DNA from: a virus
Lineage: Duplodnaviria > Caudoviricetes
Virus record (IMG/VR): IMGVR_UViG_3300027971_004105
Direction: 5' to 3' (one strand)
DNA: 64,000 bases
This document shows positions 2-63,739 of this stretch, piece after piece. Both the position numbers and the translations under genes were made by a program. The notes beneath the pieces are model-generated. The model did no database searches and was not told where the DNA came from. It saw only the letters and a list, made by a program, of their open reading frames with translations. Within the stretch, counting starts at the first letter, position 1. Each line of letters opens with the position of its first letter.

Positions 2-784
2 GGCTCAGGATCTCGTATGTGTTGTTGTGGTGGAGGACTGCCCGGCAATGCAGGTGGATATTCAAGAAAAAGCATAGCAGTGACCACTGCCAACTTTGTG
101 TGTGGCTGTGTGGGCTTTCCCAGATATTCTCATGATTTATGTTTTTCAGGTTGCGGTGATCCCAGCACAGTGTGTTGGACCAGCACTTCTTCCAATGGTT
201 GCTTGTGTGCCAGAGGTGGCCGAGGTGGCACCAGTTTCTGCAGCACTGGTACCAGCATGTTCTGTTGCTACAGAGCCAACGGATTTTGTAGTTTTGGACC
301 CATCAACGACAACTGCGGCATTGTGTGCAATCATTGTTCAGGTGGTTGGGAATCACTGGCATACGGTGGTGACATCAACTGCTGCGGCACCATAGGTTGT
401 ACATCATTTTTAGGTTGCTATCCCACATGTCCTTGTCAAACACATCATCATGCTCCTCTGCCAGCCTACATATTTGCAGAAAAAGGCGCTAGAGTGAGTT
501 TTCAAACATCAGACGGACAAGCCAACACAAGTGGTATGTCAGGCAGTCAGCTGCCTGCTTATCTACAATCACTGGCAGCACTCAGCAAACAGCCTACCAG
601 AGGCACTTTCAACTCCTATTGTTGGGTATCAAACAGATCCTGCGGATGTTATGAGATGCAAGGATGTTCACCATTTTTACCCATAGGCGCAGGTGGTCTA
701 CCTCCACAACCTTGTCCAGATGTGAGAGATCATGGAATCAGAGGCGGCTGGGGTGGCATGCGTATCAGATTTATAGCAAGTTAA
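2..784 (+). CDS. Cys/Gly-rich putative virion (tail fibre-associated) protein, 5'-partial
   Basis: Frame is open from base 2 (GSGSRMCCCGGG...), so the gene likely begins upstream of the window; GGxGG repeats and very dense Cys; lies in the tail gene cluster. Confidence 0.65.
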   Translation, partial: GSGSRMCCCGGGLPGNAGGYSRKSIAVTTANFVCGCVGFPRYSHDLCFSGCGDPSTVCWTSTSSNGCLCARGGRGGTSFCSTGTSMFCCYRANGFCSFGPINDNCGIVCNHCSGGWESLAYGGDINCCGTIGCTSFLGCYPTCPCQTHHHAPLPAYIFAEKGARVSFQTSDGQANTSGMSGSQLPAYLQSLAALSKQPTRGTFNSYCWVSNRSCGCYEMQGCSPFLPIGAGGLPPQPCPDVRDHGIRGGWGGMRIRFIAS

Positions 785-1554: not shown

Positions 1555-2499
1555 ATGAATAGATCCAAAGCATTTTTTTTAAACGGAGGTATTGGCCGAA
1601 TTTTGTGTGCTATTCCTGCACTGGAAAAATACGCAGAAGAATCGGGCGATAAAGATTTTTTAGTCATTTGCGAAGGAGCTGTGGACATACTCAAAGGTCA
1701 TCCCATACTGGATCAAAAAACCTACGATATTTTTCATAAAAATTTATTTCATTCTAAATTACAATCCAGAGAAATAGTAAGTTTGGAGCCTTATAGAGTT
1801 TGGGAATATTACAATCAAAAATGCAATCTATCTCAGGCTTTTGATATATTGATCAACGCCAAAGGAGTGAGGTCATTGCCCAAACCCACCATCCATCTCA
1901 GCAAGGAAGAAACTGCTCAAGGACAAAAATTGATGGAAGAAATCAAAGCAAAAATTAAAAAAGATAAAGCCATTGTGTTTCAACCATTTGGCAGAGGCGT
2001 AGAGCACATGGATAAAACTCTTTTGGATAAAACTGGACGCAGTTTTGAATACAAAGATGTTAAGAACTTGATACGAAAACTACAAAAAGAAAACTTTGCA
2101 GTGATACTGATGTCAGAATTTGGCATGGATCTTAAGGATCAAAAATACACAGATGATGTGGCCATGCCCGAAGGATTGAATCTAAGAGTGTGGACAGCAC
2201 TGATCAAACAAGCTGATCATTTCTTAGGCTGTGACAGTGTGGGTCAGCACTTGGCCTACATAGTAGGCACCACTTCCACTGTGGTATTGGGACCTACCTA
2301 TCCCGTCAATACCACTTATCCCGATTGTGACTATTTTAACATAATGGATATGGGAGAAATAGATAGGGAGTATGATCCAATTAGAATCACCATGGACGAA
2401 AGAATTGCTAGAAAAAATGAAATATTGATGTCTATGAACGAAGAGATTGAAGACTATGTGATCAACGGAGTAATGAGAAGAAATCAAGATGACAAGTAA
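1555..2499 (+). CDS. GT9-like (ADP-heptose:LPS heptosyltransferase-like) glycosyltransferase 1
   Basis: N-terminal GGIGRILCAIPAL and C-terminal HFLGCDSVGQHLA...STVVLGPT match GT9 GIGD..P and FIGNDSG.MHLA...LFGPT patterns. Confidence 0.7.
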   Translation: MNRSKAFFLNGGIGRILCAIPALEKYAEESGDKDFLVICEGAVDILKGHPILDQKTYDIFHKNLFHSKLQSREIVSLEPYRVWEYYNQKCNLSQAFDILINAKGVRSLPKPTIHLSKEETAQGQKLMEEIKAKIKKDKAIVFQPFGRGVEHMDKTLLDKTGRSFEYKDVKNLIRKLQKENFAVILMSEFGMDLKDQKYTDDVAMPEGLNLRVWTALIKQADHFLGCDSVGQHLAYIVGTTSTVVLGPTYPVNTTYPDCDYFNIMDMGEIDREYDPIRITMDERIARKNEILMSMNEEIEDYVINGVMRRNQDDK

Positions 2500-4303
2500 G
2501 CCTTCAGGTTATATTGCTGCCATTGCTAGAGGACACAATGCCGGAGTGTGTTTGTTAAAAGATGGCAACGTTGTTTTTTCCATAGAAGAAGAAAGATTAA
2601 GTAGACAAAAATATGATGGCGGACCTTATGCCAGCATGATGGAAATATTAAAATACACTGACAAAATAGATTATTTGATTGTGGCTCACACACAAAAACT
2701 CAAAGACACAGCAGGCAAAGTGGATTTTACAGGTGATGACGTGTACACTGGACTGGCACGTAAAATGGGATTGATTGATAGAACAGCTGATCCTCACAAC
2801 CATCCTCAAGTGATTGATCTCAGTCACATACATCACAAATTACATGCTGCATGTGCTTTTTACAGATCTGGTTGGGAAAGTGCTGTGTCGGTGATTGTAG
2901 ATGGTGCTGGAACATTCATTGGCATTAATAATAATATTCAAGGACAGACCACTGTTTGGGAAGTGGAATCAATTATAAATTGTGCATATCCTTCAAACTT
3001 TCATTCATTGTACAAACATTATGCCACTCGTGATGCTATGATTGGTGCAATATTAAAAAATTTTCCTTCGGACATTACTGACGAAGCTGGTAAAACTCAC
3101 GAAGCAATATTCAGTGACAGAGCCGGCATAGTAAAAGTATACGAAGCTGTGACACAATATTGTGGATTCCAAGCAATTGAAGCAGGCAAAACCATGGGAT
3201 TATTTCCCTATGGCAAACCCAATGATAAAATTCCGCAATTATTTGAAACTGAAGGAAAATCACCTTTGTCCAATAGAAATTTAATTGTACCAACCTACCC
3301 TAGTGCAGCGTTAGTGAACGCTCTTATTTTTGATTATCTGGAAGATGAAATAGGAAAATCTCATGATGATGTAACATTATTACAAAATCGTAGAGATTTG
3401 GCTTATGCTTGCCAAACACAAACTCAAGAACAAGTTTTAAAATTAATTCGTAAAGCAGTGTCCATGAGCAACAATAAGAGAGTGGTGTTGTCAGGAGGAT
3501 ATGGATTAAATTGTGTGGCCAACTATTATTATTTAGAACATTTGAAAGAAGAAGGAATTGAACTGTATGTGGAACCAACTTCCAACGATGCTGGCACAGC
3601 AATGGGTGCAGCATTGATGTTCTATCATCAGATATTTGCTGACAAAACTCCAAAAGTGCATAACACATTATACTTGGGTCCTATAAGAGAATACACATTG
3701 GCAGACATTGAAAAAAGAGCCAGCATCAGTGAAAATAAAAATGTTAAAATAACAGATGCCACACACAAAGATATAGTAAAACTTTTAAAATCAAAAAATA
3801 TAGTGGCCATGTTCCAAGGTAGATCAGAAAACGGTCCTAGAGCATTGGGCAATAGATCCATATTGTTTGACCCAACATTCAAAGATGGCAAAGATTTTGT
3901 AAATCTAGTTAAAAAGAGAGAATACTTCCGTCCATTTGCTGGAACTATATTGCAAGATGATGTGCATGAATGGTTTGATTTGCGTGGCATGAAAGATTCT
4001 CCGTTTATGATGTATGCTGTGAATTGTCAACCAGGTGTTGAAGAAAAAATTCCTGCAATTATTCATGTGGATGGCACTTGTAGAATACAAACAGTTACTG
4101 AAGAACAAAATAAACATTATTATGATTTAATTAAAACATTCAAAGATGAAACAGGTATACCTATATTATTCAATACTTCATTTAATTTGGGTGGTGAACC
4201 TTTGGTTGAAACTTTGGATGATGCATTTAGAACTCTAGAAAATTCCAAAATTGAATATCTATACTTGCCCGAGCATAAAAAATTAATACACATGCCGAAT
4301 TAA
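2489..4303 (+). CDS. O-carbamoyltransferase, NodU/CmcH/TobZ family, full length
   Basis: EEERLSR.K, HHKLHA, DGAG, GKTMGL, GGYGLNCVAN, NDAGTAMG (Kae1-like domain) and GPRALGNRSI, KKRE.FRPFA, HVDGT.RIQTV, NTSFN (YrdC-like domain). Confidence 0.92.
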   Translation: MTSKPSGYIAAIARGHNAGVCLLKDGNVVFSIEEERLSRQKYDGGPYASMMEILKYTDKIDYLIVAHTQKLKDTAGKVDFTGDDVYTGLARKMGLIDRTADPHNHPQVIDLSHIHHKLHAACAFYRSGWESAVSVIVDGAGTFIGINNNIQGQTTVWEVESIINCAYPSNFHSLYKHYATRDAMIGAILKNFPSDITDEAGKTHEAIFSDRAGIVKVYEAVTQYCGFQAIEAGKTMGLFPYGKPNDKIPQLFETEGKSPLSNRNLIVPTYPSAALVNALIFDYLEDEIGKSHDDVTLLQNRRDLAYACQTQTQEQVLKLIRKAVSMSNNKRVVLSGGYGLNCVANYYYLEHLKEEGIELYVEPTSNDAGTAMGAALMFYHQIFADKTPKVHNTLYLGPIREYTLADIEKRASISENKNVKITDATHKDIVKLLKSKNIVAMFQGRSENGPRALGNRSILFDPTFKDGKDFVNLVKKREYFRPFAGTILQDDVHEWFDLRGMKDSPFMMYAVNCQPGVEEKIPAIIHVDGTCRIQTVTEEQNKHYYDLIKTFKDETGIPILFNTSFNLGGEPLVETLDDAFRTLENSKIEYLYLPEHKKLIHMPN

Positions 4304-12926: not shown

Positions 12927-13299
12927 CAGTTTTTTGACTGTCACCAGGCACTATTCTATAATTGTCTTCCACGCTGTCTGCAGTGGAAACTTCTGTGATT
13001 GAACTGTTGTCCAACACAGCTTCCAATTGATGAGGTTGTAGAGGAGGATTGTGCCAAGTTTGACCTTCGCTTAATTCCTTCTGATATATTTTAGCATCCT
13101 TGGTGTCTATCCAACGCACTAAAAATTTTCCAGAATTCACAAACCAAGTTTCCTCTTTGTGTTTGTGAAAATGCAGTGAACACTTGTTGCCTGCTTTGGT
13201 AAACACTAAAATTTTTCCACAGTAATTGTCATTGGTGGCCCATATTAATTCATAACCCCAACCTTTGTCTATTTTGCCTTCTTGTCTATTCACGGTCAT
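12895..13299 (-). CDS. Cupin-fold protein (sugar isomerase-like)
   Basis: KGWG.E, CSLHFH..KEETW and HQLEA cupin metal motifs; last gene of the heptose operon. Confidence 0.8.
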   Translation of the reverse strand: MTVNRQEGKIDKGWGYELIWATNDNYCGKILVFTKAGNKCSLHFHKHKEETWFVNSGKFLVRWIDTKDAKIYQKELSEGQTWHNPPLQPHQLEAVLDNSSITEVSTADSVEDNYRIVPGDSQKTVTPELHPIAK

Positions 13300-50176: not shown

Positions 50177-51019
50177 ATGAAATTTGGTCTATTCAAAAAC
50201 AACGGAGCACTCAACAGTACAGACATCTTCTACTATGTGGCCGACGGCTTGCAACAGTTGGGTCATACAGTGACCTATGACCACATGGAAGACATAGATG
50301 TGCCTGTGATATGGTCCATGTTGTGGCATGGTAGAATGCATGGCAATCAAAAAATTTATCAATCATACAGGAGTCGTGGAAAGAATGTATTGGTTTTGGA
50401 AGTGGGTGGCATACAGAGAAATGTCACTTGGAAAGTGGCGTTGAATGGCATCAATCGTTCTGCTGATTTTGGCATGGGTGACATGGATTCTGACAGACCC
50501 CATAGATTAAAATTAAAATTAAAACCTTGGCGCACTGATGGTGAACACATTTTAATTTGTGCTCAACACGACAAGAGCGAGCAGTGGCGAGACATGCCCA
50601 CTCTGGACAGATGGGTTCACAACACTGTGCTCAAAATTAGAGAACATTCCCAAAGACCCATTGTGATCAGACCACACCCACGTTGCCCTATCAAAGATAC
50701 ATTTAAAATGTTTGGCAATGTCACTGTTCAAAATCCTGTGCAAATAGATGGAACTTATGATGATTTTAATTTGGATTTTCGCAACTGTTGGGCAGTGGTG
50801 AGTTGGAGCAGCAATCCCGGACCACAAGCAGTGATTGCAGGCGTGCCTGTGTTTGTGGGTCCTGACAGTTTGGCACATGATGTGGCCAATACAGATTTGG
50901 CAAACATTGAAACACCACACATGCCCCATCGTGAAAATTGGTTGGTGAATTACGCTCACACTGAGTGGACCGTGGATGAAATCAGAACCGGAATTCCTTT
51001 TAAACGCTTGACTTTCTAA
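50177..51019 (+). CDS. GT-B-like protein (KpsS-like domain) 5
   Basis: VIRPHP, WAVVSWSSNPGPQAVIAGVPVF, W....A..EW...E; start revised to MKFGL. Confidence 0.5.
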   Translation: MKFGLFKNNGALNSTDIFYYVADGLQQLGHTVTYDHMEDIDVPVIWSMLWHGRMHGNQKIYQSYRSRGKNVLVLEVGGIQRNVTWKVALNGINRSADFGMGDMDSDRPHRLKLKLKPWRTDGEHILICAQHDKSEQWRDMPTLDRWVHNTVLKIREHSQRPIVIRPHPRCPIKDTFKMFGNVTVQNPVQIDGTYDDFNLDFRNCWAVVSWSSNPGPQAVIAGVPVFVGPDSLAHDVANTDLANIETPHMPHRENWLVNYAHTEWTVDEIRTGIPFKRLTF

Positions 51020-51036
51020 TATCTACCGCTTATAAT
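51008..51036 (+). promoter_or_regulatory. Sigma70-type promoter TTGACT-N17-TATAAT
   Basis: Near-perfect consensus; ATG only 6 nt after the -10 box. Confidence 0.8.
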
Positions 51037-51042
51037 TAGCGT

Positions 51043-52344
51043 ATGCTAATTTCTAATCAAACACCCATGATATACACAGTGGAAGACTGTCTGGAAATTA
51101 TGATGGGCTTCAGTGATATTTTGGTTTCTCCTCCTTTCGAACTGTTGGAACGTGATAAAAAAATCTTACAAAGCATTGCTTCTAAAACATTTAAAGGTAT
51201 AGGATTAACTGACAAGCAATTGGCTGTGATTAAAAAAATACTTTTAACTAACTATATTCAACAATTTTCTGATAGAGATATTGATTTAATCAAGTCCTTA
51301 GAAACGCTGCGAGGTCCACTGCGTGAATTGGATCGTTCCACATACATCAGACTTAGAAAAGTCCAAGACATTCCCGAACTCAAAGACGTGTATAATCAAG
51401 GCAACTTTGGCATTGAACTCCAACTGATAGATGTGCGTTTTCCTTTCAACATGTCCTATGCTCGTTTGCTGAATGATGTGAAGAAAAAATTTAGATACGA
51501 TGATAGATATTTCAATCATAACAATCATTATTTTTTTCCCTATGATGAAAAATACGTTTATCATTTGATTGATAAATTCAAAAACAAAATCAAAGACATT
51601 GATCCTGAATTGTTAGAAGTTTATCAAAAACTGTGTGACATAAATGCACACCCTGAGCAACATCTGCCTGGCATATACGATTACGAAATACGCAATGTGC
51701 CTCGTGAATATATAAATCATTTGCACAACAACATAGGTATTCCCAACAAAGAAAATTTATATCTTTATCAAGATCGTCGTCAAGCACTGGCTTTGGAGTT
51801 TATGGAGAGTGCTGCTGTGCAGGAGTCATTGGGCAAAATAGATATTCTAAGTCAAAAAATTGCAATGAGAAAAACTTTTATTGTGAACATAAACAAACAC
51901 AAATGGACTCTGGATCAAGTGATTGGATCTTTGAATCAACTGTTGAGATTTCCACTTTTGGTGGTGTTGAATGAAAAACAAGCACTGAATGATTATCATC
52001 AGATACACAGCAGACTGAAGTTGCTGTTTCCATCTTCTGCACAATCAGTGCTGTTTAGACTGCCAAATGAAGAAGCCAACAACATAGAATTCAACCTGCG
52101 TGTGTCAGAAGATCGCACAAATAATTCCATTGATGAAAACACAAAAATAGTTTATATTAGTCATAAACGTGTGCCCAAACCTTTGATCAAATCTAAATGG
52201 CGAGCACAGGCTGCTATCAGTTTAAGAAGTGAAAAGGAACACAACCAAGTACAAAACTTTTTGCAACAGTATGATTTGATCATACAGTATGACCATGAAG
52301 AAAGTCCTTGGAACATTTGGCATCACGAAGTGGAGATCATATAA
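51043..52344 (+). CDS. Hypothetical protein upstream of uvsW
   Basis: 433-aa clean ORF behind a consensus promoter; no catalytic motif recognised. Confidence 0.75.
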   Translation: MLISNQTPMIYTVEDCLEIMMGFSDILVSPPFELLERDKKILQSIASKTFKGIGLTDKQLAVIKKILLTNYIQQFSDRDIDLIKSLETLRGPLRELDRSTYIRLRKVQDIPELKDVYNQGNFGIELQLIDVRFPFNMSYARLLNDVKKKFRYDDRYFNHNNHYFFPYDEKYVYHLIDKFKNKIKDIDPELLEVYQKLCDINAHPEQHLPGIYDYEIRNVPREYINHLHNNIGIPNKENLYLYQDRRQALALEFMESAAVQESLGKIDILSQKIAMRKTFIVNINKHKWTLDQVIGSLNQLLRFPLLVVLNEKQALNDYHQIHSRLKLLFPSSAQSVLFRLPNEEANNIEFNLRVSEDRTNNSIDENTKIVYISHKRVPKPLIKSKWRAQAAISLRSEKEHNQVQNFLQQYDLIIQYDHEESPWNIWHHEVEII

Positions 52345-56021: not shown

Positions 56022-56588
56022 ATGCCCGATATTGATATAGATTTTGCTGATAGAACTGTAGTGTTAGAAAAATTCAAACACATAGTTGCTAAATTAGAAA
56101 CTGGAAAGAAACATAATACTGGAATTTATTTCACAGAGATACCTCACAATCCTGTGGATAATTTATCTACATTAAATTACGATGAAGCTGAAAACAGAGG
56201 ATATTTTAAAATAGATTTTTTAAATGTAAGCATTTACAAAAATATAAAAAGTGAACAACACTTGAAACAATTGATGACCAAAGAACCCATGTGGGAATTA
56301 CTACAGGAAAAAGACTTTGTGGATCAACTATTTCATGTGAATGGACATGTGGAAATTTTACAGAAATTGAAACCCAACAATATAGAACAGTTGGCAGCAG
56401 TGCTGGCTATCATCAGACCAGCCAAAAGATATTTGTTAAATAATGATTGGAAAGAAATCATGCAACAGGTGTGGATCAAACCCACTGATGATTCTTATTA
56501 CTTTAAGAAATCCCATGCCACTTCTTATGCTGCGGCTGTGGTGGTGCACATGAATTTAATCTGTGAAGAATTAAACAATGAAATATAA
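56022..56588 (+). CDS. Miniature DNA polymerase III alpha (DnaE/family C)-like protein, 188 aa
   Basis: PDIDIDF, KHNTG, YFKIDFL, LKP..IEQLAA.LAIIRP and YFKKSHATSYA follow DnaE motifs in the correct order. Confidence 0.85.
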   Translation: MPDIDIDFADRTVVLEKFKHIVAKLETGKKHNTGIYFTEIPHNPVDNLSTLNYDEAENRGYFKIDFLNVSIYKNIKSEQHLKQLMTKEPMWELLQEKDFVDQLFHVNGHVEILQKLKPNNIEQLAAVLAIIRPAKRYLLNNDWKEIMQQVWIKPTDDSYYFKKSHATSYAAAVVVHMNLICEELNNEI

Positions 56589-57461: not shown

Positions 57462-58259
57462 ATGCAACTAATTTACCGATATTTAGTAAATAACAAAGTA
57501 CTTCTGACAGCGGATCTGGCAGGAGAAATAACGGAGTATAAATCAGTGTATCAAAGAAACATTAAAATTTACAGAGGAATAGACAACTTAATCACCTTTC
57601 AGATCAACAATGCTGATCAGAAACCCATTTCTATTGACACAGAATACACTCCCACTTTCTACATGTATGATGAAAACAATACATTAGTGGTTACTAAGCA
57701 AGGCACCATCATTGAAACTCAGGACAGTTCAGTGTACACCAACAAAGGGCAGTTCACAGTGACCATTTCTGAGAATGATCTGTTGGATTTAAAAGCTCAG
57801 TATCTCAGCTACACAGTGTGGATGACCAACAACACAGATCAATCAAAATCATTAACTTATGCCAATTCTCACTTTGAAAACAAAGGCATCATATATTTGG
57901 ATCACACAGCATTTCCAGGACCAATGAATTCTTATTCAGTGACCACATTTGCTGAAACAGGTATTGGCACAGATATTTTTATTTCAGAAACCATCAGTGG
58001 TCAGCCATCCATCAATGGTAACTCTGCACTGCACACAGCAGCCATTTATAACACAGATGCCACTGCCACAGTGACCATTCAAGGCACTTTGGACAATCAA
58101 GTATCCAACAGCACCAGTTGGGCAGATATCACTGCTATCAGTCTCACTGATTCTGACACAATCAAATATGCCAATTTCAATGGTGTGTTCAATCATATCA
58201 GATTCAAATACCAATTGACCAATTCTGGTTCCCTAAACAAAATATTAGTGCGTAACTAA
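57462..58259 (+). CDS. Putative virion structural protein (Ig/BppU-like beta-sandwich)
   Basis: Thr/Asn-rich beta-strand pattern (DN.I.FQI.NADQKPI, G.F.VTI...DL..L); late promoter; start revised to MQLIY. Confidence 0.55.
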   Translation: MQLIYRYLVNNKVLLTADLAGEITEYKSVYQRNIKIYRGIDNLITFQINNADQKPISIDTEYTPTFYMYDENNTLVVTKQGTIIETQDSSVYTNKGQFTVTISENDLLDLKAQYLSYTVWMTNNTDQSKSLTYANSHFENKGIIYLDHTAFPGPMNSYSVTTFAETGIGTDIFISETISGQPSINGNSALHTAAIYNTDATATVTIQGTLDNQVSNSTSWADITAISLTDSDTIKYANFNGVFNHIRFKYQLTNSGSLNKILVRN

Positions 58260-58288
58260 TTGACTTTTACCAATCCATAAGTTATAAT
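58260..58288 (+). promoter_or_regulatory. Sigma70-type promoter TTGACT-N17-TATAAT
   Basis: Near-perfect consensus; primase ATG 6 nt after the -10 box. Confidence 0.8.
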
Positions 58289-58294
58289 AGCACA

Positions 58295-59299
58295 ATGAGT
58301 ATTGTGTTCGATACAGTTGTTCAATATCTTCCCAGCAAGAGGAAACAGACTCCCAGTGGATGGTTGAGTTTCAATGCGCCTTGTTGCCACCATAATGGCA
58401 CCACTGCTGACTCAAGGAGCAGAGCAGGGTTGATTCAAAATGCTGATCAGGGATTGAGCTATCACTGTTTCAATTGTGGTTACAAAGCCAGTTGGGTATC
58501 AGGAAGAAATTTAACTTTCAAATTAAAACGTCTCATGCAGTGGTTGAACGTGCCCGATGATGTGATTACAAAATTGGCATTGAACGTGCTGCAACAAACA
58601 GATGAAAAAAGTATTCACAGAAATCTTGCTCAATTTCCTAAATTTAAAACAGTAGAACTACCGAAACAAGCCAAAACAATTTATGAATGGCACAAAGAAT
58701 TTTTGCAACAAAACAAAGAACCCAATTCAAATTACATCAAAGTCTTAGAATACATCAACAGTAGAAATCTAAACATCAATGATTATGATTTTTATTGGTC
58801 GCCAGAAATGGGTTACAGAGATCGAATGATTGTGCCTTTTTATTATCAAGATAAGATCGTGGGTTGGACTGCTAGAAAGATTGTGGATGACAAAGTAAAA
58901 TATCTATCTGAACAGCAACCAGGATATGTGTTCAATCTGGATGCACAGGATGATGATAGATTATTTGTGATAGCAGTGGAAGGTCCTATTGATGCAATAT
59001 TGTTGGATGGTGTGGCGTTCTTGGGCAGCGAAGTAAAACAACAACAGAGCATGTTGATTAAGAGTTTAAACAAAAAAATTATTGTGGTTCCAGATAGAGA
59101 TTCAGCAGGTGAAAAGTTAATACATGATGCTATGGAATTTGGTTGGAGTGTGAGCATGCCTGAATGGGATCACGATGTGAAGGATATCAATGATGCTGTT
59201 ATTAAATATGGTAGACTGCACACTTTGTATTCAATAGTGAAGCATGCTGAAAATCAGCAATTAAAAATAAAACTGAGGATGAAAAAATGGCTGTCATAA
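58295..59299 (+). CDS. gp61: DNA primase (T4 gp61-like)
   Basis: Zn-binding CC.H...HCFNC, R...PF, G..AR, TOPRIM VEGPIDA, VPDRD.AG, KDIND. Confidence 0.9.
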   Translation: MSIVFDTVVQYLPSKRKQTPSGWLSFNAPCCHHNGTTADSRSRAGLIQNADQGLSYHCFNCGYKASWVSGRNLTFKLKRLMQWLNVPDDVITKLALNVLQQTDEKSIHRNLAQFPKFKTVELPKQAKTIYEWHKEFLQQNKEPNSNYIKVLEYINSRNLNINDYDFYWSPEMGYRDRMIVPFYYQDKIVGWTARKIVDDKVKYLSEQQPGYVFNLDAQDDDRLFVIAVEGPIDAILLDGVAFLGSEVKQQQSMLIKSLNKKIIVVPDRDSAGEKLIHDAMEFGWSVSMPEWDHDVKDINDAVIKYGRLHTLYSIVKHAENQQLKIKLRMKKWLS

Positions 59300-59409
59300 A
59301 AACAGTGTTAAGATTTATATTTGCTCCTGTGATCAAATATTACCAATACAGACAATACAAAAAGAAAGTGAAAGAATTACAAAAAAGAGATCCTTTCATC
59401 TACAGATAA
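59287..59409 (+). CDS. Small basic protein (40 aa, not in the ORF track)
   Basis: MAVIKTVLRFIFAPVIKYYQYRQYKKKVKELQKRDPFIYR; fills the primase-carbamoyltransferase gap, stop 1 nt before the next ATG. Confidence 0.6.
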   Translation: MAVIKTVLRFIFAPVIKYYQYRQYKKKVKELQKRDPFIYR

Positions 59410-59410
59410 A

Positions 59411-60397
59411 ATGATAATTTGGGGGATTACTGCTAACAATCACGATGCCAGTATTGCCGTGTTTGAATATAAAATAGCAGGATTAACCAACAATAGAAAA
59501 CTTAAATTGCTTTGGGCTGGTTTAACAAAAGATTTTTCCGATGTGCCCAATGATCCTGATCTTAATAGAGGAATTGTTGAACATCTAAAAGAAAAATACG
59601 GTTCTCCAAAAGAAATAATATTTTATGAAAAACCGTTTTTAAAAAGTTTAAGACAGTTGTGGGCTGGACAAGGATTTAAATTTAGTGAAAACAATATTAA
59701 AAATTATTTAAAAAGATACGGATTAAATGTGCCTGTTAGATTTGTCAAACATCATGAAAGTCATGCTGCTTATGGATATTACACCAGCACATTAAGAAAT
59801 GCTGTGATTATTGTGTTAGACAGCATAGGAGAGTTTGAAACCATCAGTATTTGGTCTGGTTTGGGAAATAAAATTCAAAAAAGATATTCTCAATCATATC
59901 CGCACAGTGTGGGATTATTTTATAGTGCCATGACACAACGATGTGGATTCCAAGCCAATGCTGAAGAAAACAAATTAGAACAGTTGTCCAAACAAGGTGA
60001 TTGGAGAGTGTTGTACGATGTGTTTAATGAAGAACTAATCAAAGGTAAAATGCCATTTGAAACTCATATTAATCTACATCGAGGCTGTCGTTGGTGGAGA
60101 CCTGAATTGAATTCTAAAAAAGATTTGGCTAATATTGCTGCTACCACTCAAAAAATATTTGAAGAAGTTATTTTGGAACATTGCAGTTGGGCAAGAATGT
60201 TTGTTACAAGTAGAAATTTAATTTTGGTTGGTGGATGTGCTTTGAATAAAACTGCTTCTGATAAAGTCAAAAATTTATGGAATAATTTTTGGACTCCTAA
60301 AAATCCAGGTGACCCAGGATCATGTGTGGGTGCTGTTCTTGCCAAATACGAAAAACACATTGACTTTAATGAAAAATTATGGTATAATAAAGGTTAG
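59411..60397 (+). CDS. Carbamoyltransferase N-terminal (Kae1-like) domain only
   Basis: HDASIA, HHESHAA, LDSIGE, HSVGLFYS, GGCALN, GDPGSCVGA; the YrdC-like C-terminal domain is absent. Confidence 0.85.
   Translation: MIIWGITANNHDASIAVFEYKIAGLTNNRKLKLLWAGLTKDFSDVPNDPDLNRGIVEHLKEKYGSPKEIIFYEKPFLKSLRQLWAGQGFKFSENNIKNYLKRYGLNVPVRFVKHHESHAAYGYYTSTLRNAVIIVLDSIGEFETISIWSGLGNKIQKRYSQSYPHSVGLFYSAMTQRCGFQANAEENKLEQLSKQGDWRVLYDVFNEELIKGKMPFETHINLHRGCRWWRPELNSKKDLANIAATTQKIFEEVILEHCSWARMFVTSRNLILVGGCALNKTASDKVKNLWNNFWTPKNPGDPGSCVGAVLAKYEKHIDFNEKLWYNKG
60360..60388 (+). promoter_or_regulatory. Sigma70-type promoter TTGACT-N17-TATAAT inside the 3' end of the carbamoyltransferase gene
   Basis: Near-perfect consensus, 11 nt before the helicase ATG. 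Confidence 0.75.
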
Positions 60398-60399
60398 AC

Positions 60400-61848
60400 A
60401 TGTCCGATAATATTAAACAAAACACTGACTATGGTTATGATATACAAAAAGTATATCTAGAAATGATGTTGAGTGATGCACAAACATTTGTGCGTTGTCA
60501 AAACATATTTGATCATACTCTGTTTGATCGCAGACTTCAACCAGCAGCAGAATTCATTTACAATTATGTGAGCAAATACAATGCGTTGCCCACCGAAGAA
60601 ATGGTCAATTCCAGTTGCAAAACTGAATTAAAAGTTCCCAGCAATCTTAATGAACAACACTTTGATTGGTTGTTGGATGATTTTGAAACATTTATTAGAC
60701 ACAAAGGATTAGAACGTGCCATATTAAAATCAGCAGACATGTTGGAAAAAGGTGAATATGGTCCTGTGGAAGATTTGGTTAAGAAAGCAGTACAAATAGG
60801 ATTGAACAAAGACTTAGGAATTAATTATTGGGAAGACCCCAAAGGTAGATTGAAATCACTCAAAGACAACAACGGTCAGGTCAGCACTGGTTGGAAAACA
60901 TTAGACAAAAAGTTATTTGGTGGATTCAACAGAGGTGAGTTGAATATATTTGCTGGAGGATCAGGAGCAGGTAAATCTTTATTCTTAGCCAACTTAGGTT
61001 GTAATTGGGCATTGTCTGGATTGAATGTGCTGTATCTAACTTTTGAATTGGGAGAAGGATTAGTAGCAATGAGATTGGACAGTATGATGACCAATATACC
61101 TTCTAGAGAAATTTTTAAAGACTTAGATGGTGTGGAGATGAAAGTTAAGTTGTTGGGTAAAAAGTCTGGCAGTTTCCAGATCAAATACATGTCCAGTGGT
61201 AAGAATGCCAACGATATTAGAAGTTATATTAAAGAATTTGAAATTAAAAACAATAAAAAATTTGATGTGATATTGGTGGATTATTTGGATCTTATGATGC
61301 CAATCAGTAGAAAAGTTAGTCCTAGTGATTTGTTTGTTAAAGATAAATTTGTATCAGAAGAATTAAGAAATTTGTCCATGGACTTACAAACTATATTTGT
61401 AACAGCTTCTCAATTGAACAGAGGTGCTGTGGAAGAGATTGAATTTGATCATTCACACATAGCTGGTGGATTATCCAAAATACAAACAGCAGACAATGTG
61501 TTTGGTATATTCACATCCAGAGCAATGAGAGAACGTGGTAGATATCAAATACAATTGATGAAAACTAGATCATCCAGCGGTGTAGGTCAAAAGATTGATT
61601 TAGAATTTGATCTTGATTCTTTAAGAATCAGAGACTTACCAGAAGACGAAGAATACAAAGAGTTTGACAGCAGAAAATCCAAAATATTTGACAGTTTAAA
61701 AAAGTCCAGCACAGTGTCAGATGATGTTCAGTCTGATTCAATGCCAGTGGATCCCACTCAAGGTGTTAATATTGTTAAACCCAAAACAGAAACAGACTCT
61801 ACCAAACTGCGACAATTTCTAAATAATTTAGGACAAGACAAAGAATAA
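60400..61848 (+). CDS. gp41: Replicative helicase (T4 gp41/DnaB-like)
   Basis: STGW..LD....GG, GGSGAGKS Walker A, TFEL, ILVDYLDL, TASQLNR, IAGGLSK..TAD, K.R. Confidence 0.92.
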   Translation: MSDNIKQNTDYGYDIQKVYLEMMLSDAQTFVRCQNIFDHTLFDRRLQPAAEFIYNYVSKYNALPTEEMVNSSCKTELKVPSNLNEQHFDWLLDDFETFIRHKGLERAILKSADMLEKGEYGPVEDLVKKAVQIGLNKDLGINYWEDPKGRLKSLKDNNGQVSTGWKTLDKKLFGGFNRGELNIFAGGSGAGKSLFLANLGCNWALSGLNVLYLTFELGEGLVAMRLDSMMTNIPSREIFKDLDGVEMKVKLLGKKSGSFQIKYMSSGKNANDIRSYIKEFEIKNNKKFDVILVDYLDLMMPISRKVSPSDLFVKDKFVSEELRNLSMDLQTIFVTASQLNRGAVEEIEFDHSHIAGGLSKIQTADNVFGIFTSRAMRERGRYQIQLMKTRSSSGVGQKIDLEFDLDSLRIRDLPEDEEYKEFDSRKSKIFDSLKKSSTVSDDVQSDSMPVDPTQGVNIVKPKTETDSTKLRQFLNNLGQDKE

Positions 61849-61851
61849 TAC

Positions 61852-61876
61852 CTGCACGGAAATCGACTCCGTGCAG
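61852..61876. terminator. GC-rich hairpin between convergent genes (probable bidirectional terminator)
   Basis: ctgcacgga-aatcgac-tccgtgcag, perfect 9 bp stem just after the helicase stop. Confidence 0.7.
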
Positions 61877-61929
61877 ATATTGATGGCTGACTTCAGAAAG
61901 AAGTATTCAGCTCTGTTTATTTTTAGATA

Positions 61930-62043
61930 TTATTTGTTGATTACAACTTTTCTTACAATCACCCTAACACTTACTGTTTTACTAGAAATAAATTGTTTGA
62001 TTGTGTCAATCACTCCTGTGATTGTATTGATTATAGCCTTCAT
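61930..62043 (-). CDS. 37-aa peptide (not in the ORF track)
   Basis: MKAIINTITGVIDTIKQFISSKTVSVRVIVRKVVINK; GGAG SD 8 nt upstream; minus-strand TAAATA at 62097-62102. Confidence 0.55.
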   Translation of the reverse strand: MKAIINTITGVIDTIKQFISSKTVSVRVIVRKVVINK

Positions 62044-62139: not shown

Positions 62140-62682
62140 TTATAAAGTAGTATAATTGAATGTCAAAACTATTCTTCTCTCATTGGCTATTGGAGTTTGA
62201 CTACTGTGGAATTGAGTACCATCAAAACTGTGCCATGTGTTGCACACAGGTTTCACAGATTCTTGCACTGTGTATTTTTCACTTTCTTTTCTTTCATTAT
62301 AAATTAAAGTATCACCATCAGATTCTATCACATAAAATAATCCTGTTTGGTGTGGACGTCCATCATCAATGTGTGCATCATGAGTGACCAAATACGGTGT
62401 GCGTGTGATCAATCCCAAACGTATGCGATACAAATCTTTCAGTATCACTCCTTCTTTATCCAAAGCCACGCATAGAATATTAAATGCAGCATCAAAAAGA
62501 TTGCTGACAGGTCCTTGTTCATTTTTATAAATCAAGTGACTGAAACTGCCAGCATACTCGCCTTTTTCTGTGGGCAGTGCTGTGGTGGTCATATGGTACC
62601 AAACCACTCCTGGACTGGCCAGTTGTTGCTGAGCCAAATTCAATTGATTTGGTCCTAATAAATTGGTAATATGTTTAGACAT
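62140..62682 (-). CDS. 2OG-Fe(II) oxygenase superfamily protein
   Basis: HID (HxD), ...YV..SDGDT, FDG..FHSS..P, RIVL.FNY. Confidence 0.8.
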   Translation of the reverse strand: MSKHITNLLGPNQLNLAQQQLASPGVVWYHMTTTALPTEKGEYAGSFSHLIYKNEQGPVSNLFDAAFNILCVALDKEGVILKDLYRIRLGLITRTPYLVTHDAHIDDGRPHQTGLFYVIESDGDTLIYNERKESEKYTVQESVKPVCNTWHSFDGTQFHSSQTPIANERRIVLTFNYTTL

Positions 62683-62818: not shown

Positions 62819-63739
62819 TTAGGGGTATTGAATGGTGTGTGTCCACAGTTTGTCCACTACCGTTTTTACACACTGCTGCCATTCACTCACATCAGATTCA
62901 GCTTGTGCCTGCCACCAAATATCCTGATCCCACCATCCTGCTTGAATGGTTAGGTTTTGATTTTTTACTTGGGCCACTACTCCGGCTGCTGTGTCACAAT
63001 CACCGTTGATGCCAGCCAGCACTGCTCGTTCACACCACAATTCAATAGTTTCCTCTGGTAGTAAGAATGGTTGCCAAAGATCCCATGAACGTTGATCTTT
63101 GTCTCTGATTTGAACCACCACACAACCAGCACCAGCAGCAGGCAACATCAATTCGTTTGGTAATATTTCGTGAGCTCCACTCCATGTGGGATGATTCCAA
63201 TTGTTCTGTGTGTCTAATAAATTCAAACGTTGCACAGCACACTCAGCCATAATGATGGCAGAATATTCTCCATCAATTAATTTTTTTAATCTAGTACCGA
63301 TGTTGCCTCGTAGACTGACCACTTCTACATCTGGTCTCAACAATCGAAACTGAGCAGCACGTCTGGCGCTGCTGGTGCCTACGCGAGTGTAGCTGGGAAT
63401 TTCAGTGTAAGAATTATAAGCACTCAGCACACAATCTCTACGATCATCTCTTCGCCACACACAGCCCAACAGTGTGGTGCCTGGTTGCACTTGAGTAGGC
63501 ACATCTTTAGCACTGTGTATTACACAATCCACTTCACCTGCCAGCAATGCTTGTTCTAACTCTCTACAAAAAGCACCTTTGCCGCCTACTTCACTCAAGG
63601 GTCTATCAGTTACTAGATCTCCAGTGCTGACAATTTGTTTGATTGTGGTGGGTATGGATAAACCTTTCAGTGCCCACTGTGTTTGCACCATGGCCAGGTC
63701 TGACTGACGACTGCCCACAGTGTACACAGAAGTTTTCAT
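62819..63739 (-). CDS. hemC: Porphobilinogen deaminase (hydroxymethylbilane synthase)
   Basis: GSRQS.LA..Q, GGKG.F..ELE.ALL, HSAKDVP, GTSS.RR..Q, LRGN..TRL.KL, LPA.G.G, NGDC (cofactor Cys). Confidence 0.93.
   Translation of the reverse strand: MKTSVYTVGSRQSDLAMVQTQWALKGLSIPTTIKQIVSTGDLVTDRPLSEVGGKGAFCRELEQALLAGEVDCVIHSAKDVPTQVQPGTTLLGCVWRRDDRRDCVLSAYNSYTEIPSYTRVGTSSARRAAQFRLLRPDVEVVSLRGNIGTRLKKLIDGEYSAIIMAECAVQRLNLLDTQNNWNHPTWSGAHEILPNELMLPAAGAGCVVVQIRDKDQRSWDLWQPFLLPEETIELWCERAVLAGINGDCDTAAGVVAQVKNQNLTIQAGWWDQDIWWQAQAESDVSEWQQCVKTVVDKLWTHTIQYP

What the first reader, a model, noticed from the sequence alone, without database searches (positions are those of the whole stretch)
59287..60397. 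Stand-alone carbamoyl-transfer half enzyme wedged between primase and helicase
The gene encodes only the Kae1-like acceptor domain. The metal ligands in HHESH, LDSIG and GDPG are kept, the usual K.MGL is altered to KLEQL, and the YrdC-like domain that makes carbamoyl-AMP is absent. Its last codons contain the helicase promoter. Established: related phage enzymes carbamoylate 5-hydroxymethylcytosine. Inference: a replisome-linked DNA or RNA modifier that takes its activated donor in trans, from the full-length paralog at 2489-4303 or from host TsaC/YrdC, perhaps transferring an aminoacyl-carbamoyl group. The 40-aa KRDPFIY peptide upstream may be a partner.
Basis: partly seen in the sequence, partly recalled or inferred. 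Interest (0 to 1): 0.65.

Follow-up and report, generated by a model that had tools for sequence, protein, structure and literature searches.

The report
Stand-alone half carbamoyltransferase in aquatic phages
This phage gene encodes only the transfer half of a carbamoyl-adding enzyme; hundreds of uncultured aquatic phages keep that half intact under selection, and it most likely works with a full-length sister enzyme that decorates tail-fibre sugars, not as a DNA modifier at the replication fork.

Summary
Window 59411-60397 (+) encodes a 328-aa protein with only the Kae1-like N-domain of a NodU/TobZ-type carbamoyltransferase. The metal ligands and the likely general-base His are kept; the YrdC-like domain is absent from every frame near it.

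It is not a recent truncation. More than 90 loci, down to about 40% identity, carry the same 320-340-aa form directly upstream of the DnaB-like helicase. dN/dS is about 0.11-0.15.

The helicase-promoter claim holds. TTGACT-N17-TGGTATAAT sits in the I-D...W-Y-N codons and is conserved across the family.

The 'replisome-linked modifier' reading rests on position alone.
- The cultured relatives PA5oct and Atu_ph07 have primase and helicase adjacent, with no such gene.
- The primase side of the gap is an insertion hot spot.
- The embedded promoter could by itself fix the adjacency.
- The 40-aa ORF is real but stays with the primase.

The nearest short-form relatives lie in heptose or tail-fibre clusters. 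One sits 4 kb from an ortholog of the window's full-length paralog. Cyanophage S-SSM7 shows the same pairing. All four informative contigs hold both genes.

Best reading: a second acceptor module fed carbamoyl-AMP by the full-length enzyme. The scan noted the same arrangement before on another genome (e1-5337734).

The parts
59411..60397 (+). Stand-alone Kae1-like (Carbam_trans_N) half carbamoyltransferase, 328 aa
   Evidence: Pfam PF02543 only. AF2 model has pLDDT 87.5. Best folds are GdmN, NovN, TobZ and VtdB, TMq 0.76-0.80. Invariant residues include H11, D12, H114, H118, D137, G140, E141 and D301. dN/dS is 0.11-0.15.
60360..60388 (+). Sigma-70-type promoter of the helicase gene, embedded in the codons for I-D...W-Y-N of the half enzyme
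   Evidence: Scores 11 of 12 with an extended -10. Conserved in 62 of 70 unique loci, and the W-Y-N codons read TGGTATAAT in 60 of 69. The helicase ATG follows 7 nt after the -10 in 27 loci and 11 nt after it here.
60400..61848 (+). DnaB-like replicative helicase
   Evidence: Pfam DnaB_C. 51% identical to the PA5oct helicase. Follows the half enzyme in all 94 loci analysed.
59287..59409 (+). Conserved 40-aa microprotein, C-terminus ELQKRDPFIY(K/R), translationally coupled to the primase
   Evidence: Overlaps the primase stop by 13 nt in 68 of 69 loci. Alignment of 44 unique copies shows the conserved C-terminus. dN/dS median 0.17. Stays with the primase when inserts intervene.
58295..59299 (+). 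DnaG/Toprim-type primase
   Evidence: Pfam Toprim_2 and TIGR01391.
58260..58288 (+). Sigma-70-type promoter in front of primase, microprotein and half enzyme; the ATG lies 6 nt after the -10
2489..4303 (+). Full-length carbamoyltransferase paralog (Kae1-like plus YrdC-like domains) in the heptose / tail-fibre cluster; candidate source of carbamoyl-AMP
   Evidence: Pfam N and C domains. Only 20% identical to the half enzyme. Orthologs lie about 52-57 kb upstream of the half enzyme in 3 of 3 contigs that reach that far. 63-65% identical to the full-length enzymes of a cyanophage-type contig and of S-SSM7, which sit next to short forms.

Best explanation
The gene encodes an old, selected, catalytically competent acceptor half of a NodU/TobZ-type O-carbamoyltransferase. 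It has the Kae1-like domain with the Fe/Zn site, the general-base His and the adenylate pocket. It has lost the YrdC-like half that makes carbamoyl-AMP from carbamoyl phosphate and ATP.

Inferred mechanism: it takes carbamoyl-AMP made by the YrdC-like domain of the co-resident full-length carbamoyltransferase (2489-4303). It then transfers the carbamoyl group to a second acceptor of the heptose / tail-fibre decoration pathway, such as another hydroxyl or another sugar.

Its place in front of the helicase is a secondary relocation. The relocation has been locked in because the helicase promoter now lies inside its last codons.

Shown: domain content, conserved catalytic residues, age, purifying selection, synteny, the embedded promoter, and co-occurrence with the full-length lineage. 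Inferred: the donor, the acceptor and the pathway.
For: Identity and age:
- Pfam finds only the N-domain.
- The predicted fold is nearest to GdmN, NovN and TobZ rather than to TsaD/Kae1.
- The residues conserved across short and full-length clades include the four metal ligands, which align to GdmN and TobZ. They also include H11-D12, read as the general base of GdmN H27 / TobZ H14.
- Every relative above about 45% identity is 294-342 aa.
- The short clade has 0.997 support and is nested among compact full-length phage enzymes.
- dN/dS is 0.11-0.15, similar to the helicase.

Partnership with the full-length enzyme:
- An ortholog of the full-length paralog is present in the window and in 3 of 3 related contigs long enough to reach it.
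- The sister subclade of short forms lies in sugar or fibre clusters. P0206 is 4 kb from a full-length enzyme that is 63% identical to the window's paralog. P0191 lies beside tail genes.
- Cultured cyanophage S-SSM7 has a 369-aa N-only gene two genes after its full-length enzyme in the heptose cassette.
- A naturally split N-plus-C gene pair exists.
- PA5oct and Atu_ph07 lack both the half enzyme and any carbamoyltransferase.

Position explained without a shared function:
- The promoter is embedded and conserved.
- The primase side is an insertion hot spot, with gaps of 102-2550 nt.
Against: - The half enzyme and the full-length paralog lie 57 kb apart.
- The half enzyme appears to be co-transcribed with the primase from a sigma-70-type promoter, whereas the fibre cluster is probably expressed late. 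Timing may therefore not match.
- No biochemical evidence exists for any N-only carbamoyltransferase.
- Co-occurrence was tested in only four contigs of this clade.
- Both short clades have lost the MG of the K.MGL motif and changed LNC to LNK. This could mean loss of the surface that faces a YrdC-like domain, or equally a change of donor.
Confidence: 0.5

Rival explanations
1. One reading: a replisome-associated modifier of DNA, nucleotides or RNA. It would carbamoylate a base such as a hydroxymethyl-pyrimidine, or a 7-deazaguanine side chain, during replication, using a donor made in trans.
For: - It is fixed directly upstream of the helicase in 94 of 94 loci and sits in one tight block with the primase.
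- A phage carbamoyltransferase acting on 5hmC in DNA is established (PMC8670742).
- Earlier notes place a 7-deazaguanine DNA-modification cluster elsewhere in this genome (not tested here).
- The family is somewhat more basic than full-length N-domains, median pI 8.9 against 8.2.
Against: - PA5oct and Atu_ph07 run the same module without it.
- The adjacency is explained by the embedded promoter.
- The nearest short and full-length relatives are in sugar or fibre islands.
- No thymidylate-synthase-like hydroxymethylase and no TGT/DpdA was found in five relatives' fragments. This is weak evidence, because the fragments are only 12-26% complete.
- The known 5hmC enzyme is full-length.
Confidence: 0.15
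2. It hijacks a host-made adenylate, above all the threonylcarbamoyl-AMP released by TsaC/Sua5, and transfers that larger group to a phage-chosen acceptor.
For: - TC-AMP is a TsaC-made intermediate that a separate Kae1-type enzyme (TsaD) then uses (abstract of PMC7913687, plus general knowledge of the t6A pathway).
- No phage YrdC-like gene was found in five fragments.
- One distant short form, P0192, gives a weak TsaD Pfam hit.
- S138 replaces the usual G or A next to the metal-binding Asp in the oxyanion-hole loop.
Against: - Sequence and fold are clearly of the NodU/TobZ type.
- The active-site motifs are nearly identical to those of compact full-length carbamoyltransferases; for example P0186 also reads LDSIGEW.
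- The gene co-occurs with a full-length carbamoyltransferase.
Confidence: 0.1
3. It no longer transfers anything. It would be a nucleotide- or metal-binding accessory, for example a regulator or an inactive dimer partner of the full-length enzyme, as TsaB is for TsaD.
For: - The donor-making half is lost.
- Kae1-family enzymes often work as dimers with a paralog (TsaD-TsaB structures appear among the fold hits).
Against: - All catalytic residues, including the general-base His and the four metal ligands, are invariant over deep divergence. Inactive partners such as TsaB lack them (general knowledge).
- Selection acts on the whole protein, not only on the promoter-bearing tail.
Confidence: 0.1
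4. It is a recent truncation or a decaying pseudogene of a full-length carbamoyltransferase.
For: The closest matches in the deposited phage collection, RsoM2USA gp199 and marine virus AG-345-D19, are full-length.
Against: - Those matches are only about 36% identical.
- Hundreds of closer relatives have the same length.
- dN/dS is 0.11-0.15.
- No C-domain remnant exists in any frame.
Confidence: 0.01

Closest known systems
Class III O-carbamoyltransferases TobZ, GdmN, NovN and VtdB (NodU/CmcH family; PDB 3VEN, 7VYJ, 9S2T, 7XB6)
   Same: Same Kae1-like ASKHA fold (TMq 0.76-0.80). Same H-x3-H / D / D metal site, N-terminal general-base His, and helix-2 and loop motifs.
   Different: It lacks the whole YrdC-like domain that makes carbamoyl-AMP. 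The MG of the K.MGL motif is lost. It is a separate 328-aa polypeptide.
Synechococcus phage S-SSM7 gp123 (SSSM7_123, 'Nol-like carbamoyltransferase', 369 aa)
   Same: An N-only carbamoyltransferase in a phage that also encodes a full-length enzyme 65% identical to the window's paralog.
   Different: Only 24% identical and an independent short lineage that keeps GKIMGL. It lies two genes from the full-length enzyme in the heptose cassette, not in the replication module.
Phage 5-hydroxymethylcytosine carbamoyltransferase (MetaGPA study, eLife 2021, PMC8670742)
   Same: A phage-encoded member of the same superfamily.
   Different: That enzyme is a full-length 63-kDa protein that needs carbamoyl phosphate and ATP, and it is linked to a thymidylate-synthase-like gene. 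Nothing here shows such a link.
TsaD / Kae1 / Qri7 with TsaC/Sua5 (t6A synthesis)
   Same: It sets the precedent for a stand-alone Kae1-type transferase that receives an adenylate made by a separate YrdC-type protein.
   Different: Fold similarity is lower (TMq 0.56-0.60). The window protein gives no TsaD Pfam hit. No TsaB or TsaE-like partner was seen.
Adjacent split N (273 aa) and C (203 aa) carbamoyltransferase ORFs in a radical-SAM/sugar island (L103); PHROG 20469 (C-domain-only family)
   Same: Shows that the two halves occur as separate polypeptides in phage-type islands.
   Different: There the two halves are neighbours. Here no C-only ORF lies nearby.

Membership tests
NodU/CmcH/TobZ-type (class III) carbamoyltransferase | Kae1-like ASKHA domain with a metal site of two His and two Asp | tested here: met
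   PF02543 at 2.9e-28. H114, H118, D137 and D301 are invariant and align to the GdmN and TobZ ligands. The fold matches.
NodU/CmcH/TobZ-type (class III) carbamoyltransferase | General-base His in the N-terminal loop (GdmN H27, TobZ H14) | tested here: met
   H11-D12 is conserved in the short, compact and long full-length groups. Equivalence to H27/H14 is by alignment position, not by superposed coordinates.
NodU/CmcH/TobZ-type (class III) carbamoyltransferase | YrdC-like domain that forms carbamoyl-AMP from carbamoyl phosphate and ATP | tested here: not met
   No PF16861 in the protein. No C-domain in any frame of the window other than the paralog's. The same holds in all close relatives.
NodU/CmcH/TobZ-type (class III) carbamoyltransferase | Carbamoyl transfer to a hydroxyl acceptor | not testable with these tools
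   Needs an enzyme assay.
TsaD/Kae1/Qri7 t6A transferase | Match to the TsaD family model and closest fold | tested here: not met
   The window protein gives no PF00814 hit. TsaD and Kae1 structures rank below the carbamoyltransferases.
Phage 5hmC DNA carbamoyltransferase system | Full-length enzyme linked to a dCMP hydroxymethylase (thymidylate-synthase-like) gene | tested here: inconclusive
   The enzyme is not full-length. No PF00303 was found in five related contigs, but these are only 12-26% complete. The rest of this genome was not available.
Essential replisome component (such as a helicase loader) | Present wherever the homologous primase-helicase module occurs | tested here: not met
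   PA5oct and Atu_ph07 have the same module with primase and helicase adjacent and no such gene.

The most novel reading that the evidence does not exclude
The half enzyme is a replication-coupled nucleic-acid modifier. It would take carbamoyl-AMP, or host threonylcarbamoyl-AMP, made in trans and place a carbamoyl-type group on a base of nascent phage DNA or on a nucleotide precursor. That would add a new DNA hypermodification route to a very abundant group of aquatic phages.
Probability: 0.12. Interest if true: 0.85.

Novelty: new variant of a known kind. Interest (0 to 1): 0.42.

Why it matters
Two-domain carbamoyltransferases are treated as self-contained. The GdmN paper (PMC9633730) states that all characterised class III enzymes carry both domains.

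Here a donor-less half is a conserved gene of a large, abundant and wholly uncultured clade of marine and freshwater phages. Short forms have arisen several times beside full-length enzymes.

If one YrdC-like domain feeds several acceptor modules, phages could diversify their surface glycans cheaply. Automatic 'carbamoyltransferase' labels on these genes would then be misleading.

The case also shows that strict gene adjacency can be fixed by an embedded promoter rather than by shared function. That is a caution for guilt-by-association annotation.

Tried and rejected
- **Complex prediction.** I tested the half enzyme against the C-domain of the full-length paralog. The result was 'no answer', score 0.00. 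This is neither support nor evidence against binding.
- **Metatranscriptomes.** Contigs from four lake RNA runs were laid on 58200-61900. Only short pieces covered the primase end, the small ORF, the first bases of the gene, and the helicase. DNA carry-over cannot be excluded, so this shows nothing firm about expression.
- **Own genome.** The window's own assembly is not held. The nearest record, G001, is a 24-kb fragment without the gene.
- **Whole-record search.** Records behind the loci from the look-up of encoding contigs could not be searched.
- **Searches in five related viral contigs.** I looked for free YrdC/Sua5 (PF01300), thymidylate synthase or hydroxymethylase (PF00303) and TGT/DpdA (PF01702). 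Nothing was found, but the contigs are only 12-26% complete.
- **T4-type late promoter.** The word TATAAATA is not enriched in the window.
- **Helicase-loader idea.** Rejected, because PA5oct and Atu_ph07 lack the gene.
- **'Kept only as a promoter carrier'.** Rejected. The promoter spans only about 10 of the last 15 codons, while selection and invariant catalytic residues span the whole protein.
- **Literature.** I found no paper on a stand-alone N-domain between primase and helicase.
Full report
**What is there**

The stated span holds two ORFs: a 40-aa ORF (59287-59409) and a 328-aa ORF (59411-60397). They lie between a Toprim/DnaG-type primase (58295-59299) and a DnaB-like helicase (60400-61848).

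The 328-aa protein matches only Pfam Carbam_trans_N (2.9e-28). The paralog at 2489-4303 matches both Carbam_trans_N and Carbam_trans_C. PHROG 1601 aligns only over its first 326 of 528 positions.

An HMM built from C-domains and run over all six frames of the window finds only the paralog's C-domain. The second half is therefore truly absent, not frame-shifted or split nearby.

The two window paralogs are only 20% identical.

**Is it a decayed copy? No**

- A word-indexed search gave 1931 homologs. The best 120 are 194-348 aa long (all but four are 298 aa or longer), carry only PF02543, and fall to 48% identity.
- An exhaustive search with no length filter shows that every representative above about 45% identity is short. 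The first full-length relatives, compact forms of 483-502 aa with both domains, appear at 38-45% identity.
- In a tree of N-domains, the window protein lies in a clade of 22 tips that are all 294-342 aa long (support 0.997). That clade is nested among the compact full-length phage enzymes.
- A second all-short clade around P0192 has support 0.998. The nodes between the two clades are weak, so a single origin is not excluded.
- Pairwise dN/dS for the gene is 0.11-0.12 against its closest relatives, with a median of 0.154 over 1082 pairs. The helicase has a median of 0.152 and the primase 0.092.

**Is it still an enzyme? Very probably**

- The AF2 model is confident (pLDDT 87.5).
- It is most like the Kae1-like domains of GdmN, NovN, TobZ and VtdB (TMq 0.76-0.80). 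TsaD and Kae1 come well behind at 0.56-0.60. Profile search of solved structures gives the same order.
- GdmN binds iron through H133, H137, D156 and D333, uses H27 as general base, and forms the oxyanion hole with the two backbone amides after D156 (PMC9633730).
- The aligned residues here are H114, H118, D137, D301, H11-D12 and D137-S-I-G-E. They are invariant in the family. The His, Asp and Gly-Glu positions are shared with compact and long full-length enzymes.
- The systematic differences of both short clades are loss of the MG in K.MGL and a change of LNC to LNK or LNS. Without coordinates I could not tell whether these residues face the missing domain.

**Position**

- In 94 loci the helicase always follows. 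The gap is mostly between -44 and +17 nt, and at most 423 nt where one or two small ORFs intervene.
- The gap between primase and the half enzyme ranges from 102 to 2550 nt. It holds variable inserts such as 2OG oxygenase, ClpP and DUF2061.
- The helicase is 51% identical to that of Pseudomonas jumbo phage PA5oct and 49% identical to that of Atu_ph07.
- Both of those phages have the same local module: a small reverse gene, a structural protein of about 270 aa, primase, helicase. In both, primase and helicase are adjacent, with no half enzyme and no 40-aa ORF.
- The gene is therefore a clade-specific insertion, not a replisome necessity.

**The embedded promoter**

- TTGACT-17-TATAAT with a TG extension lies at 60360-60388. 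The -35 is coded by I-D and the extended -10 by W-Y-N.
- Across 70 unique loci, 62 score at least 11 of 12. The W-Y-N codons read TGGTATAAT in 60 of 69, and Asn is AAT in 66 of 69 here against 70% elsewhere in the gene. The D-to-W spacing of five codons holds in every tail inspected.
- In 27 loci the helicase ATG lies exactly 7 nt after the -10, which predicts a leaderless mRNA. In the window the distance is 11 nt.
- The exact pattern occurs 4 times in the window against 0.03 expected. The copies before the primase and before the gene at 51043 have an ATG 6 nt after the -10.
It also gives a non-functional reason for the strict adjacency: the helicase cannot easily be separated from the 3' end of this gene.

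**The 40-aa ORF**

- It is real. There are 44 unique copies with a near-invariant C-terminus ELQKRDPFIY(K/R) and a median dN/dS of 0.17.
- Its ATG overlaps the primase stop by 13 nt in 68 of 69 loci, and a GAGGA lies upstream.
- Where inserts separate the primase from the half enzyme, the small ORF stays at the primase (for example L080 and L086).
- In the window its stop lies 1 nt before the half enzyme's ATG. That closeness is not conserved.
- Linkage thus ties it to the primase.

**Where the family comes from and what it travels with**

- The closest full-length relative, P0186 (45% identity), lies in a radical-SAM/sugar island.
- The sister subclade of short forms is not in replication modules.
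  - P0206 (36% identity) sits in a heptose-type sugar-nucleotide cluster of a T4-like, cyanophage-type contig. It lies 4 kb from a full-length carbamoyltransferase that is 63% identical to the window's paralog.
  - P0191 lies among tail genes.
- Cultured cyanophage S-SSM7 has a full-length enzyme 65% identical to the window's paralog. Two genes further on it has an independent 369-aa N-only gene in the heptose cassette.
- A naturally split adjacent N-plus-C pair exists, and so does a phage family consisting of the C-domain alone (PHROG 20469).
- Within the window's own clade, three of five long viral contigs carry a full-length ortholog (open frames of 603-615 aa; the genes are 603-609 aa). 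It lies about 52-57 kb upstream of the half enzyme, as in the window. The other two contigs do not extend that far.
- PA5oct and Atu_ph07 lack both genes.
- The half enzyme therefore travels with one lineage of full-length carbamoyltransferase. Earlier notes place that enzyme in a fibre-cluster heptose module.

**Reading**

The best-supported mechanism is a second acceptor module. It would use carbamoyl-AMP from the full-length enzyme within the fibre or heptose decoration pathway, and it was relocated next to the helicase.

I give this reading about 0.5. Its weak points are the 57-kb separation, likely different timing of expression, and the lack of any biochemistry.

- The DNA-modifier reading keeps about 0.15. 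It has only position and analogy in its favour.
- Use of host TC-AMP gets about 0.1.
- A non-catalytic role gets about 0.1.
- Recent truncation is excluded.

**Novelty**

Stand-alone N-only carbamoyltransferases are already annotated in deposited phages without comment (S-SSM7 gp123). The scan had already noted the same primase / half enzyme / helicase arrangement on another genome (e1-5337734).

I found no paper on it. I therefore class it as a new variant of a known enzyme kind, of moderate interest.

Noticed in passing
window 12934-12962, 51008-51036, 58260-58288, 60360-60388 (+): The exact pattern TTGACW-N17-TATAAT occurs 4 times against 0.03 expected. Three copies have an ATG 6-11 nt after the -10, which predicts leaderless or near-leaderless mRNAs for the primase, the helicase and the gene at 51043. 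The copy at 12934 follows the giant fibre gene and has no ATG close by.
   Followed up: partly
window 59287-59409 (+): A 40-44-aa microprotein with a near-invariant C-terminus ELQKRDPFIY(K/R). It is always translationally coupled to the primase (13-nt overlap) and is absent from PA5oct and Atu_ph07. It may be a replisome tethering or regulatory peptide.
   Followed up: partly
window 62166-62139 (-) and 61881-61847 (-): A perfect 12-of-12 sigma-70-type promoter lies in the last codons of the 180-aa gene (62140-62682, -). About 250 nt downstream is a 15-bp-stem terminator-like hairpin. Together they could form a small transcription unit holding a 37-aa ORF (61930-62043, -), or a small RNA.
   Followed up: no
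window 62819-63739 (-): A phage-encoded hydroxymethylbilane synthase (HemC; TIGR00212 at 3.2e-72, above cut-off), also present in the close relative L003. It looks like a tetrapyrrole auxiliary metabolic gene.
   Followed up: no
window 56022-56588 (+); L006, L009 and L011 downstream of the helicase: The DnaE-type polymerase appears to be split into pieces. A 188-aa ORF starts MPDIDIDF and gives a weak DNA_pol3_finger hit. Relatives encode a separate 542-aa protein with DNA_pol3_alpha and finger domains just after the helicase.
   Followed up: no
L107 16258-17367 (Synechococcus phage S-SSM7, SSSM7_123): A cultured cyanophage carries an independent 369-aa N-only carbamoyltransferase that keeps GKIMGL. 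It lies two genes after its full-length enzyme in the heptose cassette and would be a tractable model for testing how half enzymes work.
   Followed up: partly
L103 7161-7982 and 8001-8612: A carbamoyltransferase naturally split into adjacent N-only (273 aa) and C-only (203 aa) ORFs inside a radical-SAM/sugar island. The 203-aa C-only form recurs in many metagenome clusters.
   Followed up: partly
L006 3186-3839 and neighbours: Marine relatives carry a Vut_1 (YhhQ-like queuosine-precursor transporter) gene, 2OG oxygenases, a cupin and a methyltransferase just upstream of the primase block. This fits the 7-deazaguanine theme noted elsewhere in this genome.
   Followed up: no
window 2-784 (+): An open frame, cut by the window edge, that is extremely rich in Cys and Gly (CCCGGG..., many CxxC-like spacings). 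It lies at the edge of the fibre cluster.
   Followed up: no
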